A stretch of 64,000 bases of DNA from a virus. Location: the IMG/VR virus record IMGVR_UViG_3300014205_000232, positions 675 to 64,674 of that record, one strand, 5' to 3'. Shown here piece by piece: positions 25,886-27,529 of this stretch. Position 1 is the first letter of the stretch. Every line of letters starts with the position of its first letter. The position numbers and the translations under genes are program-made. Below the pieces are notes generated by a model. That model saw nothing but the letters and a program-made list of their open reading frames with translations. It was not told the DNA's origin and made no database searches.

Positions 25886-27529
25886 ATGGCTGAGAAGATG
25901 GACAGGAAGACGATGCCCACGGGGCACAGCGCCCAGGACTTTGAGGTTCTGGGCCGCGCTGCCACCGACCAGGGTGACTTTGGGAGTGCCGTGGGTGTGG
26001 CCGACATGGCCTGCGTGGACCAGTTCGGCAAGAACAACAGCAAGTATTACCACGCGAGTGTGGTACGCAGCACCCGGACGGGCTCGTTCTACGTATACCT
26101 GGAGTGGGGCCGGATCTTCAATGGCCACTCGTGGACGACGGGCTTCCACGGACAGGACTACCAGTTCGTGGCCTGCTCGAACGAGGGTGAAGCCCGGGAC
26201 TTCTTCTCGAAGCAGTGCCAGGACAAGAACCTGAAGCGACTCGTGTCAACCACGGTCGGTGGCGTGAAGGTGTGGACGGCCAAGCCAGGGAAGGACGGTT
26301 ACCTCGTTCAGTCCCTGGCCACCCGTGAGCGTGGGCTGCCAGACGCCTACAAGATCAAGGACGCCGCTGGGGTCAAGGTTGCTGCTCCCACCACCCCGGT
26401 GGTCAAGAAGGCCACGATCAAGTCCTCGCGTACCTACCACCCGCAGGTGGTGAAGATCGCTTCCGACCTGATCGGCGGTGTCAAGACCTACACCAAGGCG
26501 CTCGCGGCGGCCTCGGGGATGACCCCGACCATGGACGCCATCACCCAGGTGCGAGACGGGCTCATCCCGGCGGCCCTGGAGCGGATCAAGGTGGTTGGAA
26601 ATCTGGTCGACGACCAGATCCAGGATCGGGACCTGGTCGGGATCTCCAAGATGGTGAGTGCCCTGGTTCCCCGGCCCATCCCTCGGACTGGGATCTCGGC
26701 CGCCGAGGCTATCCTCAACTCGGACAACATTTTCAGGCTCCAGCAGGACCTGGATACCTTCGAAGCCTCCCTCGCCAACGAGGACTTCGTTGTGGAGGAG
26801 AACGACAACTCGGTCAACCCCGACAGCCTGCTCAATGCCACGCTGACTTGGCTGGACCCCAAGGGCGACGGAGCGGCTATCGTGGCGATGCTCAGGGCTC
26901 AGACCAACAATCGGCATGGCTACCTGAGCAGTCCCATGAAGGTGCTCAACCTGTTCCAGGTTGACCGTCCCGACCGAGACGCCCAGTTCCTGGCCAACGT
27001 TCGCACGGTGGCCAGCCGCCTGAAGGGGCACTACAGCGTGAAGGCTGGCCTTCAGCCCAAGGTTCGGACGGACATCCCGGCCGAGGAGCAGGCGCTCTAC
27101 CGGGACGCCAATGTCATCCTGACCCAGCATGGGACTCGGTCCGTGAACGTGGGGCCGATCGTGCAGACCCACTTCCGTATGCCCAAGAGCCTCTCGGGGG
27201 TTCAGATCACGGGTGCCAACTTCGGTTACGGGACCTATACCGCAACCGACCTGAACAAGGCGGTTGGCTACACCAGCTACGAGCGAAGCCACTGGAGTGG
27301 CGGCGGCGGGGGCATCGCGGGGCGTGGAGCCTTCATGTTCATGACCGAGACCCTGATGGGGGACGCCTACCTCGCCCCCTCGACGGGCAGCTGGGACAAG
27401 GCCCCGAATGGTAAGGACAGCGTCTTCGGACGGGGTGGCGACCGGGGTCACGGCCTGCAGAACGACGAACACGTTGTGTTCCACCCACACTACAATCGCA
27501 TCCGATACCTCGTTGAGTTCACCTACTGA
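25886..27529 (+). CDS. PARP-like ADP-ribosyltransferase (N-terminal WGR domain plus H-Y-E catalytic domain)
   Basis: WGR: YYHASVVRS..GSFYVYLEWGRIFNG. Catalytic: LTQHGTRSVN (H-G-S/T), ANFGYGTYTA (Y-G-x-Y), NDEHVVFHPHY (catalytic E), alignable with the PARP1 catalytic core. Confidence 0.8.
   Translation: MAEKMDRKTMPTGHSAQDFEVLGRAATDQGDFGSAVGVADMACVDQFGKNNSKYYHASVVRSTRTGSFYVYLEWGRIFNGHSWTTGFHGQDYQFVACSNEGEARDFFSKQCQDKNLKRLVSTTVGGVKVWTAKPGKDGYLVQSLATRERGLPDAYKIKDAAGVKVAAPTTPVVKKATIKSSRTYHPQVVKIASDLIGGVKTYTKALAAASGMTPTMDAITQVRDGLIPAALERIKVVGNLVDDQIQDRDLVGISKMVSALVPRPIPRTGISAAEAILNSDNIFRLQQDLDTFEASLANEDFVVEENDNSVNPDSLLNATLTWLDPKGDGAAIVAMLRAQTNNRHGYLSSPMKVLNLFQVDRPDRDAQFLANVRTVASRLKGHYSVKAGLQPKVRTDIPAEEQALYRDANVILTQHGTRSVNVGPIVQTHFRMPKSLSGVQITGANFGYGTYTATDLNKAVGYTSYERSHWSGGGGGIAGRGAFMFMTETLMGDAYLAPSTGSWDKAPNGKDSVFGRGGDRGHGLQNDEHVVFHPHYNRIRYLVEFTY

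What the first reader, a model, noticed from the sequence alone, without database searches (positions are those of the whole stretch)
25886..27529. Phage-borne PARP-like ADP-ribosyltransferase (WGR + H-Y-E triad), with two ADP-ribose erasers elsewhere in the window
The product has an unmistakable WGR module (…YVYLEWGRIFNG…). Its C-terminal domain aligns position-for-position with the PARP1 catalytic core: H-G-T, Y-G-x-Y, and the catalytic Glu in NDEHVVF. The same window also encodes an ADP-ribosylglycohydrolase at 10090..11019 and a MacroD-type macro domain at 21405..22001. A writer and two erasers of ADP-ribosylation on one phage-like genome point to deliberate manipulation of host ADP-ribose signalling, or to self-protection against it, for example against ADP-ribosylating defence systems. 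The PARP gene is also GC-richer than its neighbours, which suggests horizontal acquisition.
Basis: partly seen in the sequence, partly recalled or inferred. Interest (0 to 1): 0.8.

Follow-up and report, generated by a model that had tools for sequence, protein, structure and literature searches.

The report
Huge-phage PARP enzyme with dedicated partners
A giant bacteriophage carries a genuine, probably active relative of the human DNA-damage sensor PARP; phage PARPs were already known in outline, but this family travels with its own DNA-binding partner and ADP-ribose-removing enzymes, and in some bacteria the same set is built into retron loci.

Summary
The ORF at 25886..27529 (+) encodes a 547-aa protein with a PARP1-3-type layout: WGR, a helical regulatory domain, then an ADP-ribosyltransferase domain. 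H415, Y451, Y462 and E528 are invariant in 28 relatives. The Macro gene (21405..22001, minus strand) and the ARH gene (10090..11019) are real.

The gene is not a recent import. It belongs to a compact family found on 200-620 kb phage contigs, in Myxococcota and in Planctomycetota. Its codon GC3 tracks each genome, so the horizontal-transfer argument fails.

New here: a 299-aa winged-helix/AbrB-like protein (37860..38759) lies next to the PARP in 20 of 30 phage loci and 11 of 11 Myxococcota loci. In Planctomycetota its winged-helix domain is fused to a type XIII retron reverse transcriptase. Six loci show the full row ARH, HEAT/ARM, SWIM, wH-RT, PARP, Macro.

Linkage in relatives therefore supports a writer-plus-erasers set. 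It does not hold in the window's closest relatives, and the window's Macro is paired with a cREC gene.

Most likely this is a DNA-end- or nick-activated, reversible ADP-ribosylation module. It is a new variant of a known kind. No biochemistry was tested.

The parts
25886..27529 (+). PARP1-3-type ADP-ribosyltransferase, 547 aa. Layout: WGR domain (about aa 1-155), disordered Pro/Ala/Lys-rich linker (about aa 160-185), helical HD-like domain (about aa 186-300), ART domain (about aa 319-546). The catalytic set is H415, G416, Y451, K458, Y462, E528.
   Evidence: ORF. Pfam PARP 53 bits and WGR 22.5 bits. Alignments to PARP2 and PARP1. H415, Y451, Y462 and E528 are invariant in 28 homologues. AF2 model plus Foldseek hits to DNA-bound PARP1/2 WGR-HD-ART chains.
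37860..38759 (+). PARP-associated partner, 299 aa: N-terminal winged-helix domain, long helix, C-terminal AbrB/MraZ-like beta domain. It has the highest GC3 in the window (0.88).
21405..22001 (-). MacroD-type macro domain protein, 198 aa. Candidate eraser of mono-ADP-ribose. It is also half of a Macro-cREC pair.
   Evidence: PF01661 118 bits. 46% identical to the Macro gene whose start overlaps the PARP stop codon in Neorhodopirellula pilleata, with the NAAN...GGGVDGAIHRAAG motif shared. The Macro-cREC pair is conserved in L086/L087 without a local PARP.
22004..22372 (-). cREC (cyclic-phosphate-processing receiver-like) protein, 122 aa, immediately upstream of the Macro gene on the same strand.
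   Evidence: PF20274 76 bits. phrog_1479. The cRec-Macro linkage is described by Iyer et al. 2021 (PMC7824862).
10090..11019 (+). ADP-ribosylglycohydrolase (ARH/DraG family), 309 aa (326 aa from the GTG at 10039). Candidate second eraser, about 15 kb from the PARP.
   Evidence: PF03747 96.8 bits. phrog_6572. The GDAYG, TDDTQ and GDVDT motifs are visible. ARH-family genes recur near this PARP family in 8 phage and 12 Planctomycetota loci, but from different ARH lineages.
52871..54946 (+). NAD-dependent DNA ligase (LigA) with BRCT domain. A context gene, not shown to be part of the module.
   Evidence: Pfam DNA_ligase_aden 146 bits, OB and BRCT. GC3 0.76. LigA homologues lie within 10 kb of the PARP in 4 phage and 2 Planctomycetota loci. 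ATP-dependent DNA ligases and RNA ligases also recur.

Best explanation
The gene encodes a catalytically competent PARP1-3-type enzyme. It is a long-resident gene of a lineage of huge phages.

Inferred mechanism, by analogy with PARP1-3 and the DNA-dependent Herpetosiphon PARP:
1. The WGR domain binds a DNA discontinuity, an end or a nick.
2. This relieves autoinhibition by the helical domain.
3. The ART domain, with its H-Y-E triad, then uses NAD+ to ADP-ribosylate itself, DNA-bound proteins, or possibly the nucleic-acid end.

The enzyme works with a dedicated winged-helix/AbrB-like DNA-binding protein (37860..38759). That protein's winged-helix domain is most likely the adaptor, or the acceptor, that ties the PARP to a particular DNA.

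The mark is reversible through MacroD-type and/or ARH-type hydrolases. In this window those are dispersed, at 21405..22001 and 10090..11019.

Shown here: domain architecture, conserved catalytic residues, fold, family distribution and gene linkage. Inferred, not shown: DNA-dependent activation, targets, mono- versus poly-ADP-ribosylation, and the biological purpose. Purpose could be nick/break signalling for the phage's own replication and repair, or inter-element conflict.
For: Architecture and active site:
- Pfam PARP and WGR.
- Collinear alignment to PARP2 and PARP1, including the helical domain.
- H415, G416, Y451, K458, Y462 and E528, and W74-G75-R76, are invariant or nearly so in 28 homologues at 51-65% identity.
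- The AF2 model's best matches are DNA-bound PARP1/2 WGR-HD-ART chains.

Family:
- At least 387 clusters, with the top 120 all full length.
- About 59 clusters at the 50% level with E<=1e-30, so a compact clade.
- 30 IMG/VR loci on contigs up to 619 kb, plus the 595-kb uncultured-phage record LR756511.1.

Partner linkage:
- Found in 20/30 phage loci, 11/11 Myxococcota loci and 26/36 Planctomycetota loci.
- The phage subclades' partners are homologous by hhalign (96.6%, E 5.6e-10).
- The partner fold is winged helix plus AbrB/MraZ-like.

Reversibility:
- The Macro gene's start overlaps the PARP stop codon in L054, and a Macro gene lies directly downstream in 9 loci.
- An ARH gene sits in the same gene row.

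Nucleic-acid-end context:
- NAD- and ATP-dependent DNA ligases, T4 Rnl1 and RtcB recur within 8-10 kb of phage PARPs.
- PolA and primase lie about 7-11 kb before the window start.

Codon usage:
- The PARP, the partner and LigA have the three highest GC3 values in the window.
- PARP GC3 tracks genome GC across relatives.

Precedent:
- The H. aurantiacus PARP needs DNA and makes PAR (Perina et al. 2014, PMC4245714).
Against: - No biochemical evidence of any kind was obtained.
- WGR only just passes Pfam's threshold (22.5 against 22). The helical-domain match is weak by sequence (i-E 0.019) and rests mainly on the predicted fold.
- The position equivalent to PARP1 S904, a nicotinamide contact, is Ala459 in this protein and its nearest relatives. 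Most family members have Ser.
- In this window the partner is 10.3 kb from the PARP and the ARH gene 15 kb.
- A syntenic relative (L086) keeps Macro-cREC and the partner but has no PARP between them.
- One phage subclade of 10 loci has no detectable partner, Macro or ARH.
- H-Y-E does not predict polymer formation. PARP3 is a mono-transferase (my knowledge).
- The retron and CRISPR neighbours in relatives suit a conflict role as well as a repair role.
Confidence: 0.55

Rival explanations
1. Conflict module. The PARP, the winged-helix partner and the erasers form a defence-type or counter-defence switch related to the retron-XIII-linked version in Planctomycetota. The PARP is triggered by foreign or perturbed DNA, such as incoming linear phage DNA, cleaved DNA or retron msDNA. 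It then ADP-ribosylates targets or burns NAD+. The phage uses it for superinfection exclusion or to neutralise a host retron.
For: - In 25/36 Planctomycetota loci the PARP sits beside a type XIII retron RT. Fifteen loci have HEAT/ARM, SWIM and RT together, and six have the full row ARH, HEAT/ARM, SWIM, wH-RT, PARP, Macro.
- The partner's winged-helix domain is fused to that RT, outside the region covered by the PADLOC RT_XIII profile.
- In the 444-kb relative the PARP lies about 2 kb downstream of a type I-E CRISPR-Cas operon. Two of the phage loci carry Cas genes.
- Retron XIII accessory proteins themselves contain a WGR-like domain (Mestre et al. 2020, PMC7736814).
Against: - The window has no RT, SWIM or HEAT/ARM gene.
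- No PADLOC model hits the PARP, partner, Macro or ARH.
- Very high codon optimisation and near-universal conservation across a huge-phage lineage are more typical of a core function than of an accessory defence gene.
- Ligase neighbours fit repair.
- Type XIII retrons are reported as vertically inherited and possibly domesticated.
Confidence: 0.25
2. The PARP, Macro and ARH form a phage toolkit aimed at the host. The PARP modifies host proteins in the way T4 Alt/ModA/ModB do. The two hydrolases protect the phage from host ADP-ribosylating defences such as DarT-type DNA ADP-ribosylation, or degrade ADP-ribose-derived immune signals.
For: - All three enzymes are present and look intact.
- Phage ARTs that modify host proteins, and phage Macro, ARH and cRec domains proposed to counter NAD+-derived signals, are described (PMC7824862, PMC9503650, PMC8120803).
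- The window's Macro is paired with cREC, a pair predicted to process cyclic-phosphate ADP-ribose derivatives.
- That pair persists without a local PARP in L086. This fits a PARP-independent job for the Macro.
Against: - WGR-HD-ART is the architecture of DNA-activated enzymes, not of injected host-modifying toxins.
- There is no MuF or virion context.
- The same PARP, ARH and Macro combination occurs inside bacterial chromosomes (L054 and others), where a host-manipulation purpose makes no sense.
- The erasers are not linked to the PARP in the window's closest phage relatives.
Confidence: 0.15
3. The protein keeps the fold but is not a transferase in vivo. It could be a pseudo-enzyme, a DNA-binding scaffold or a plain NADase. 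In that case the co-occurrence with hydrolases in this window is coincidental.
For: - Ala replaces the S904-equivalent residue.
- The loops around the donor site have low model confidence: residues 433-446 and 464-478 have pLDDT below 50.
- The erasers are far apart in the window.
Against: - H, Y, Y, K and E are strictly invariant across more than 28 diverged homologues. Conservation runs the full length in every phage and bacterial member.
- Hydrolases are repeatedly and independently recruited next to the gene.
Confidence: 0.05

Closest known systems
Human PARP1, PARP2 and PARP3 (DNA-dependent, clade 1 PARPs)
   Same: The C-terminal layout is the same: WGR, helical regulatory domain, ART. 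The H-Y-E triad and the K903/Y907 equivalents are present. They are the best sequence and fold matches in PDB.
   Different: Identity is only about 15%. There are no zinc fingers, BRCT domain or N-terminal disordered region. A 25-aa disordered linker lies between WGR and the helical domain. Ala occupies the S904-equivalent position, and Asn the Y986-equivalent position. The companion is a winged-helix/AbrB-like protein rather than HPF1 or histones. The setting is viral or bacterial.
Bacterial PARPs (Herpetosiphon aurantiacus, Clostridioides difficile CD160; Plesiocystis pacifica is listed by Perina et al. 2014)
   Same: WGR plus ART, with or without a helical domain, and a conserved triad. The H. 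aurantiacus enzyme is DNA-dependent and makes PAR (PMC4245714, PMC8120803). The P. pacifica gene (L038) is a true member of the present family at 46% identity.
   Different: The present family is a discrete clade. With a single-sequence query, other PARPs match only over the ART domain. Its diversity lies mostly in huge phages, and the Myxococcota and Planctomycetota members nest inside phage branches in an unsupported NJ tree. The conserved partner, the retron linkage and the Macro/ARH flanks are not mentioned in the papers read.
Short phage PARP-like ARTs (PHROG 23333; Klebsiella phages 05F01 and FBKp34, Stenotrophomonas phages; Aeromonas phage Aeh1 and Cellulophaga phage phi4:1 in Perina 2014; 'PARTs' of Iyer et al. 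2021/2022)
   Same: Phage-encoded H-Y-E ART domains of the PARP family. They show that phage PARPs as such are already known.
   Different: They match only aa 373/399-545 at about 30% identity. Whether they carry WGR or a helical domain was not checked here. In the phage database, only one uncultured 595-kb phage has the full-length form.
Type XIII retrons (Mx162, Mx65, Sa163, Ne144; RT plus SWIM/winged-helix/DEDE protein plus HEAT/ARM protein with WGR-like domain)
   Same: In Planctomycetota relatives the PARP lies directly after RT_XIII, and the phage partner's winged-helix domain is fused to that RT. WGR domains occur in both.
   Different: The window has no RT, SWIM or HEAT/ARM gene and no identified msr/msd. 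It is not a retron. PARP, ARH and Macro are not listed as retron XIII components in Mestre et al. 2020 or in the 2026 SPIRE survey.
DarT-DarG and other ART-plus-macro pairs
   Same: An ART writer is encoded next to a macro-domain eraser, with nucleic acid as the likely arena.
   Different: DarT is a small, distantly related ART that modifies thymidine in ssDNA, and DarG is a fused antitoxin (my knowledge; PMC9503650). Here the writer is a 547-aa WGR-HD-ART enzyme, the Macro is MacroD-type, and in the window the two genes are 4 kb apart on opposite strands.

Membership tests
PARP / ARTD family (H-Y-E clade ADP-ribosyltransferases) | ART fold that matches the PARP catalytic-domain profile above the curated threshold | tested here: met
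   PF00644 53 bits against cut-off 26.7. Family profile against PARP1 CAT E 6e-13. Foldseek E 7e-20 to 1e-14 against PARP1/2/3 catalytic domains.
PARP / ARTD family (H-Y-E clade ADP-ribosyltransferases) | His-Tyr-Glu triad at the NAD+ site (PARP1 H862, Y896, E988), plus Y907 and K903 | tested here: met
   H415, Y451, E528, Y462 and K458 align to these positions and are invariant in 28 homologues. The S904-equivalent is Ala459 here and Ser in most members. Residue-level 3-D superposition could not be printed with these tools.
DNA-dependent PARPs (PARP1-3 type) | WGR domain N-terminal to the catalytic region | tested here: met
   PF05406 22.5 bits against cut-off 22, so marginal. phmmer alignment to the PARP2 WGR. 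W74-G75-R76 invariant. The whole-chain Foldseek alignment covers WGR.
DNA-dependent PARPs (PARP1-3 type) | Helical (HD / PARP_reg) autoinhibitory domain between WGR and ART | tested here: inconclusive
   There is no Pfam PARP_reg hit. The profile aligns positions 225-368 to the PARP1 helical domain with i-E 0.019. The model has helices at 186-298, and Foldseek aligns about 400 columns to HD+ART chains (TM about 0.62). The region is HD-like by fold and weak by sequence.
DNA-dependent PARPs (PARP1-3 type) | Catalytic activation by DNA breaks | not testable with these tools
   Needs an enzyme assay. The only precedent is the H. aurantiacus PARP (PMC4245714).
Poly(ADP-ribose) polymerases in the strict sense | Synthesis of ADP-ribose polymers rather than mono-ADP-ribose | not testable with these tools
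   The triad is necessary but not sufficient. The Y986-equivalent is Asn526.
MacroD-type macro domains (gene 21405..22001) | Macro fold with the catalytic NAAN and GGGVDGAIH motifs | tested here: met
   PF01661 118 bits over the whole model. 'VNAAN...GGGGVDGAIHRAAG' is visible in the alignment. Assigning these motifs to catalysis rests on my own knowledge.
ADP-ribosylglycohydrolase (ARH/DraG) family (gene 10090..11019) | ARH fold with the acidic metal-binding motifs | tested here: met
   PF03747 96.8 bits in two stretches. The GDAYG, TDDTQ and GDVDT motifs are visible. It is divergent from the PARP-linked ARHs of relatives, at about 26% identity over 103 aa.
Type XIII retron | Retron RT of clade 10 with SWIM and HEAT/ARM accessory genes and an msr-msd RNA | tested here: not met
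   No RT, SWIM or HEAT/ARM homologue among the window's ORFs. No PADLOC hits for 20 window proteins. No Rfam hit. The association exists only in Planctomycetota relatives.
Huge (jumbo) phage genome | Phage hallmark genes and affiliation with recognised phage genomes | tested here: inconclusive
   No capsid, portal or terminase gene was found in the window or in the 7 kb beyond it.

In favour:
- The only database relatives are 'uncultured phage' records of 485-595 kb.
- 30 IMG/VR contigs carry the PARP.
- The window has PhoH, ThyX, thymidine kinase, dNK, an endolysin-like amidase, and dense ORFans.
- An intein-bearing PolA and a primase lie just beyond the window start.

The most novel reading that the evidence does not exclude
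This PARP, its winged-helix adaptor and the ARH/Macro hydrolases form an undescribed, portable switch for reversible ADP-ribosylation at DNA ends. It is shared between huge phages and type XIII retron loci. In Planctomycetota the retron RT carries the adaptor domain, so the PARP would read out the state of the retron's msDNA. In huge phages the free-standing adaptor would point the same enzyme at phage or foreign DNA, possibly capping nucleic-acid ends with ADP-ribose until ARH or Macro removes the cap and a ligase seals the end. A corollary follows if the tentative tree is right and the bacterial members nest within phage diversity: huge phages would be the main reservoir and vector of PARP1-3-type enzymes in bacteria.
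Probability: 0.2. Interest if true: 0.85.

Novelty: new variant of a known kind. Interest (0 to 1): 0.6.

Why it matters
PARP1-3-type enzymes are central to eukaryotic DNA-damage signalling, but their role in bacteria and phages is essentially unknown. To my knowledge only one bacterial enzyme has been shown to be DNA-dependent.

This work defines a coherent, widespread huge-phage family with the full WGR-HD-ART layout. It gives that family a concrete candidate partner and candidate erasers. It also connects the family to type XIII retrons, whose effector logic is still unclear.

That turns a vague annotation ('phage PARP') into a small set of testable components:
- enzyme plus adaptor plus DNA;
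- two hydrolases;
- a six-gene retron locus in a cultured planctomycete.

If the retron link is functional, it would add ADP-ribosylation to the repertoire of retron systems.

Tried and rejected
- Megablast of window 20-44 kb against phage records found no match.
- PADLOC has no model for the PARP, partner, Macro, cREC or ARH, or for 10 other large window proteins.
- Promoter and terminator scans around the PARP gave nothing above shuffles.
- The window has no tRNA and no Rfam family.
- My first neighbour test used single-sequence phmmer at E<=1e-5. It wrongly suggested that ARH is never linked to this PARP. tblastn of the window's ARH likewise missed LR756511.1. Iterative search and Pfam later found ARH genes in 8 phage loci, including LR756511.1, and in 12 Planctomycetota loci. 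I withdrew the earlier conclusion.
- The idea that the conserved 275-aa ORF downstream of the PARP in phage subclade B is a divergent partner was rejected. hhalign probability is 0.1% and there is no Pfam hit.
- Horizontal acquisition inferred from GC was rejected.
- Two look-ups of window-edge proteins failed because the recorded gene starts differ.
- Aravind et al. 2015 (PMC6126934) is not held, so I could not check whether the RT or partner context is mentioned there.
- Literature searches for retron plus PARP, WGR or macro found no paper that describes the association. The library covers open-access papers only.
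Full report
1. THE OBSERVATION

The ORF 25886..27529 (+) is real: ATG start, 547 aa.

Pfam places aa 340-517 in the PARP catalytic family (53 bits against a cut-off of 26.7). It places aa 48-115 in WGR at 22.5 bits, just over the cut-off of 22. Against PDB sequences the best matches are human PARP2 chains. They align in three collinear pieces: the WGR domain, HGT to HGS, and NDEHVVF to YNEYIVY.

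The other two genes also exist. The ARH gene runs from 10039 or 10090 to 11019 (+) and scores 96.8 bits on PF03747. The Macro gene scores 118 bits on PF01661. It lies at 21405..22001 on the minus strand, so translating the + strand hits a stop codon.

The PARP gene is GC-richer than its surroundings: GC 0.63 and GC3 0.84, against a window median GC3 of about 0.62.

2. ANATOMY OF THE PROTEIN

I aligned 28 full-length homologues at 51-65% identity. H415, T417, R418, Y451, K458, Y462 and E528 are invariant, as are W74-G75-R76 of the WGR motif. G416 is nearly invariant, conserved in at least 90% of the sequences. These residues correspond to PARP1 H862, G863, Y896, K903, Y907 and E988.

There is one deviation. 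The PARP1 S904-equivalent is Ala459 in this protein and its nearest relatives, but Ser in most of the family.

A family profile searched against PDB aligns the ART domain (positions 412-546). It also aligns positions 225-368 to the helical regulatory domain of PARP1, though weakly (i-E 0.019).

An AlphaFold2 model has mean pLDDT 77.8 and pTM 0.65. It shows a beta-rich N-terminal domain, a disordered linker (162-179), a helical block (186-298) and an ART-type alpha/beta domain.

The model's best Foldseek matches in PDB are the WGR-HD-ART chains of human PARP1 and PARP2 bound to DNA breaks. The top hit is 7s6h_D, with E 7e-20, about 568 aligned columns and TM 0.61 by target. Hundreds of PARP1/2/3 HD+ART structures follow.

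The protein is a PARP1-3-type WGR-HD-ART enzyme. I could not print a residue-level superposition.

3. WHAT GENOME IS THIS?

The window is positions 1..64000, reversed, of a 97,746-bp metagenomic contig.

It has no tRNA genes and no Rfam families. I found no capsid or terminase genes.

It does carry PhoH, ThyX, thymidine kinase, a deoxynucleoside kinase, an endolysin-like amidase and an NAD-dependent ligase. It also has many dense ORFans. Just beyond the window start lie an intein-containing PolA and a primase-type protein.

The only relatives in annotated phage records are 'uncultured phage' genomes of 485-595 kb. The PARP family occurs on 30 IMG/VR contigs of up to 619 kb.

I take it as very probably a huge phage, at roughly 0.85. 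Hallmark structural genes were not seen.

4. THE FAMILY AND THE GC ARGUMENT

The large protein database holds at least 387 homologous clusters. The best 120 are all full length at 50-65% identity, on contigs up to 444 kb.

At the 50%-cluster level only about 59 representatives score E<=1e-30. More distant hits cover only the ART domain. The family is therefore a compact, discrete clade within the PARPs.

A scan of one genome per prokaryotic species found the same full-length family in cellular genomes:
- Myxococcota of the Nannocystaceae, at 45-50% identity. These include the isolates Enhygromyxa salina and Plesiocystis pacifica and a 7-Mb contig.
- Many Planctomycetota, at 33-38% identity. 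These include Neorhodopirellula pilleata Pla100, a 7.8-Mb Pirellulaceae chromosome and a 4-Mb Gemmataceae contig.

In a neighbour-joining tree both bacterial groups nest inside phage branches. The tree has no support values and a distant outgroup, so this is only a lead.

Across 24 loci the PARP's GC3 ranges from 0.145 in a 27%-GC genome to 0.96 in a 64%-GC genome. It ranks among the four highest locally in 17 of 24 loci.

In the window the three highest-GC3 genes are the partner described below (0.88), the PARP (0.84) and LigA (0.76).

This is the signature of a long-resident, codon-optimised gene that is probably highly expressed.

One caution applies. A syntenic relative, L086, has 40-50% amino-acid identity and conserved anchors on both sides. 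It has 5.4 kb of other genes where the window has 13 kb that include the PARP. The gene's position is therefore not fixed.

The 299-aa product of 37860..38759 (+) has no Pfam, PHROG or PADLOC match.

Its homologues lie 0-5 kb downstream of the PARP in 20 of 30 non-redundant phage loci. One of these is the published 595-kb phage LR756511.1. They lie directly downstream in 11 of 11 Myxococcota loci. The versions in two phage subclades are homologous by profile-profile comparison (96.6%, E 5.6e-10).

In the window the PARP and the partner lie on the same strand, with most called genes between them also on that strand. They are separated by 10.3 kb. The three ORFs directly downstream of the PARP have no homologues in 32 of the related loci.

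The partner is not strictly dependent on a neighbouring PARP, because L086/L087 have it without one. One phage subclade of 10 loci has no detectable partner.

6. THE RETRON CONNECTION IN PLANCTOMYCETOTA

In Planctomycetota the partner's winged-helix domain (profile positions about 10-140) is the N-terminal extension of a protein of about 640-700 aa. That protein is encoded directly upstream of the PARP. In N. pilleata it is a reverse transcriptase by Pfam (RVT_1) and by PADLOC (RT_XIII, 513 bits).

The PADLOC profile covers only aa 237-642. The winged-helix extension is therefore not part of the canonical type XIII RT.

The two genes before it are SWIM_XIII (610 bits) and HEAT-ARM_XIII (533 bits). 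These are the accessory genes of type XIII retrons (Mestre et al. 2020, PMC7736814).

An RT_XIII gene is within 10 kb of the PARP in 25 of 36 Planctomycetota loci. Fifteen loci have HEAT/ARM, SWIM and RT together.

The window itself has none of these genes. It is not a retron.

Neither Mestre et al. 2020 nor a 2026 survey that counts 26 type XIII retrons in Planctomycetota mentions PARP, ARH or Macro. My searches found no paper that links them. The library is open-access only.

7. THE ERASERS

A Macro gene that is 46% identical to the window's, with the same NAAN...GGGVDGAIH motifs, lies directly after the PARP in 9 Planctomycetota loci. In L054 its start overlaps the PARP stop codon. A Macro gene is within 10 kb in 11 of 36 loci.

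ARH genes, confirmed by Pfam at 125-172 bits, open the same gene row in 10 Planctomycetota loci. Two further loci have an ARH elsewhere within 10 kb, one of them as an ARH-Macro fusion. ARH genes also lie 2.7-8 kb downstream of the PARP in 8 phage loci, including LR756511.1.

Six loci show the complete row ARH, HEAT/ARM, SWIM, wH-RT, PARP, Macro.

My first single-sequence test had missed every ARH. The window's ARH, the phage-subclade ARHs and the Planctomycetota ARHs are only 23-26% identical to one another. They are therefore independent recruitments of the same enzyme class. That argues for functional coupling at the level of chemistry. It also means the window's ARH cannot be called an orthologue of a PARP-linked one.

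Against coupling in this particular window:
- The ARH gene is 15 kb away.
- The Macro gene is 4 kb away on the other strand, immediately followed by a cREC gene (PF20274, 76 bits). Iyer et al. describe that pair as processing cyclic-phosphate ADP-ribose derivatives in RNA repair or counter-signalling (PMC7824862, PMC9503650). The pair is conserved in L086/L087 without a local PARP.
- None of the window's closest phage relatives has Macro or ARH within 10 kb of the PARP.

8. OTHER CONTEXT

I scanned the 102 longest ORFs (at least about 330 aa) within 8 kb of phage PARPs. The recurrent families were ClpX-type AAA proteins, T4-type RNA ligase (5), RtcB (1), ATP-dependent DNA ligase (3), an NAD ligase, ARH (4) and Cas proteins (2 loci).

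LigA homologues lie within 10 kb in 4 phage and 2 Planctomycetota loci. In the 444-kb relative a complete type I-E Cas operon ends about 2 kb upstream of the PARP.

So the neighbourhood is rich in enzymes that act on nucleic-acid ends, with a sprinkling of conflict systems.

9. HOW IT MOST LIKELY WORKS

Shown here:
- A WGR-HD-ART enzyme with an intact catalytic set.
- A dedicated winged-helix/AbrB-like companion.
- Recurrent ADP-ribose hydrolases.
- Nucleic-acid-end enzymes nearby.

Inferred from what is established for PARP1-3 and for the H. aurantiacus enzyme (PMC4245714): WGR binds a DNA end or nick, the helical domain opens, and NAD+ is used to ADP-ribosylate the enzyme itself, DNA-bound proteins or the DNA end.

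The winged-helix domain appears wherever this PARP family goes, and its fusion partner changes from an AbrB-like domain to a retron RT. It is therefore most simply read as the adaptor, or the acceptor, that couples the PARP to a particular DNA. Macro and ARH enzymes reset the mark.

I give this overall picture 0.55. Component estimates:
- The enzyme is an active transferase: 0.85.
- It is DNA-activated: 0.6.
- It works with the partner: 0.7.
- The window's Macro acts on its products: 0.4.
- The window's ARH acts on its products: 0.25.

The purpose is unresolved. Signalling of nicks or breaks during replication and repair of a very large phage genome fits the codon optimisation, the breadth of conservation and the ligase neighbours. 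A conflict role fits the retron and CRISPR neighbours (0.25). This is because the same gene set sits in bacterial chromosomes and because the architecture is that of a DNA-activated enzyme.

10. COMPARISON WITH WHAT IS KNOWN, AND NOVELTY

Phage and bacterial PARP homologues are established in the literature:
- Perina et al. 2014 list four viral PARPs and 27 bacteria, including Plesiocystis pacifica, which is a member of this very family.
- Iyer et al. note PARPs/PARTs in jumbo phages and count PARTs among the most frequent viral ARTs.
- A 2024 study annotates 'PARP1' beside NAD-dependent ligases in gut jumbo phages (PMC11662467).
- The cRec-Macro pair is also described.

So the finding as written is a new member of a known kind.

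Three things appear to be new, within the limits of my literature access:
- The delineation of this full-length family as a huge-phage-centred clade.
- Its conserved winged-helix partner.
- The six-gene arrangement with type XIII retrons, ARH and Macro in Planctomycetota.

On that basis I file it as a new variant of a known kind, with interest 0.6. It is not surprising in its chemistry. It offers a concrete, testable handle on two open questions: what prokaryotic and viral PARPs do, and how type XIII retrons work.

Noticed in passing
L054 2843..12123 (Neorhodopirellula pilleata Pla100, NZ_SJPM01000010); the same row occurs in L049, L055, L058, L074 and L075: A six-gene, same-strand row: ARH, HEAT-ARM_XIII, SWIM_XIII, winged-helix-RT_XIII, PARP, Macro. 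This is a type XIII retron flanked by an ADP-ribosylation writer and two erasers. It is not mentioned in the retron papers I read.
   Followed up: partly
L084 1..6 (contig k141_1446628, about 7 kb before window position 1, minus strand): The same phage contig encodes a second, shorter PARP-domain protein (305 aa, PF00644 in the precomputed annotation), outside the window. I could not fetch its sequence.
   Followed up: no
L084 80..5390 (contig region just before the window start): A DnaG-type zinc-ribbon protein and a 1416-aa family-A DNA polymerase interrupted by a LAGLIDADG intein.
   Followed up: no
window 44443..45498 (+), followed by 45511..48577: A second WGR-like protein (351 aa; PF05406 20.3 bits, just under the cut-off). 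It sits directly upstream of a response regulator, a PAS histidine kinase and a second response regulator, which is an unusual two-component cluster for a phage. It has no homologue in the related loci.
   Followed up: partly
window 19835..20524 (-): A short release-factor-like gene (229 aa; PCRF fragment plus an RF-1/GGQ domain). The source's gene caller split it into 176-aa and 37-aa products. It may be an ArfB-like rescue factor or relate to recoding.
   Followed up: no
window 33151..33486 (+); also 36693..37268 and 34382..34708: A second cREC gene (PF20274), a HAD_SAK_2 phosphatase-like gene and a DUF3228 gene. All three lie in the ORFan stretch between the PARP and its partner.
   Followed up: no
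window 12041..15892 (+): A DUF4419 protein (211 bits) and an 827-aa protein with a polynucleotide-kinase-like AAA_33 P-loop lie just downstream of the ARH gene. They may form an RNA- or nucleotide-repair cluster.
   Followed up: no
L004 706..7864 (444-kb relative, ERZ27247350 k141_2421636): A complete type I-E CRISPR-Cas effector operon (Cas3, Cse1, Cse2, Cas7, Cas5, Cas6e) ends about 2 kb upstream of the PARP homologue on a huge-phage-sized contig.
   Followed up: no
alignment A1, columns about 596-633 (P0044, P0073, P0083, P0084, P0118): Some family members carry a Cys-rich insertion of about 30 aa (CxxC...CxC, zinc-ribbon-like) in the ART domain, just before the conserved DSVFG motif. The window protein lacks it.
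   Followed up: no
L068 12382..13755 (-): A single ORF matches both the ARH and the Macro queries, apparently an ARH-Macro fusion. It is encoded next to a PARP-partner pair in a Pirellulaceae MAG.
   Followed up: no
L086/L087 compared with window 20636..39575: Two IMG/VR contigs are syntenic with the window. They share the 261-aa gene, Macro, cREC and a 241-aa gene on one side, and the HAD gene, the partner and a 137-aa gene on the other. Between these anchors they have 5.4 kb of other genes and no PARP, where the window has 13 kb. This is a variable island between conserved anchors.
   Followed up: partly
L054 6013..6069 and 12417..12489: Long near-perfect hairpins that scored against miRNA-precursor models only. 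One lies in the gap between HEAT-ARM and SWIM, the other just after Macro. The first could be part of the retron non-coding RNA and the second a terminator.
   Followed up: no
phage subclade B loci (L017, L020-L023, L027, L031, L033, L034): These PARP loci lack a detectable partner, Macro and ARH. They share other conserved neighbours instead: an unknown 275-aa protein, a 422-aa Aldolase_II-like protein and a calcineurin-like phosphoesterase of about 200 aa.
   Followed up: partly
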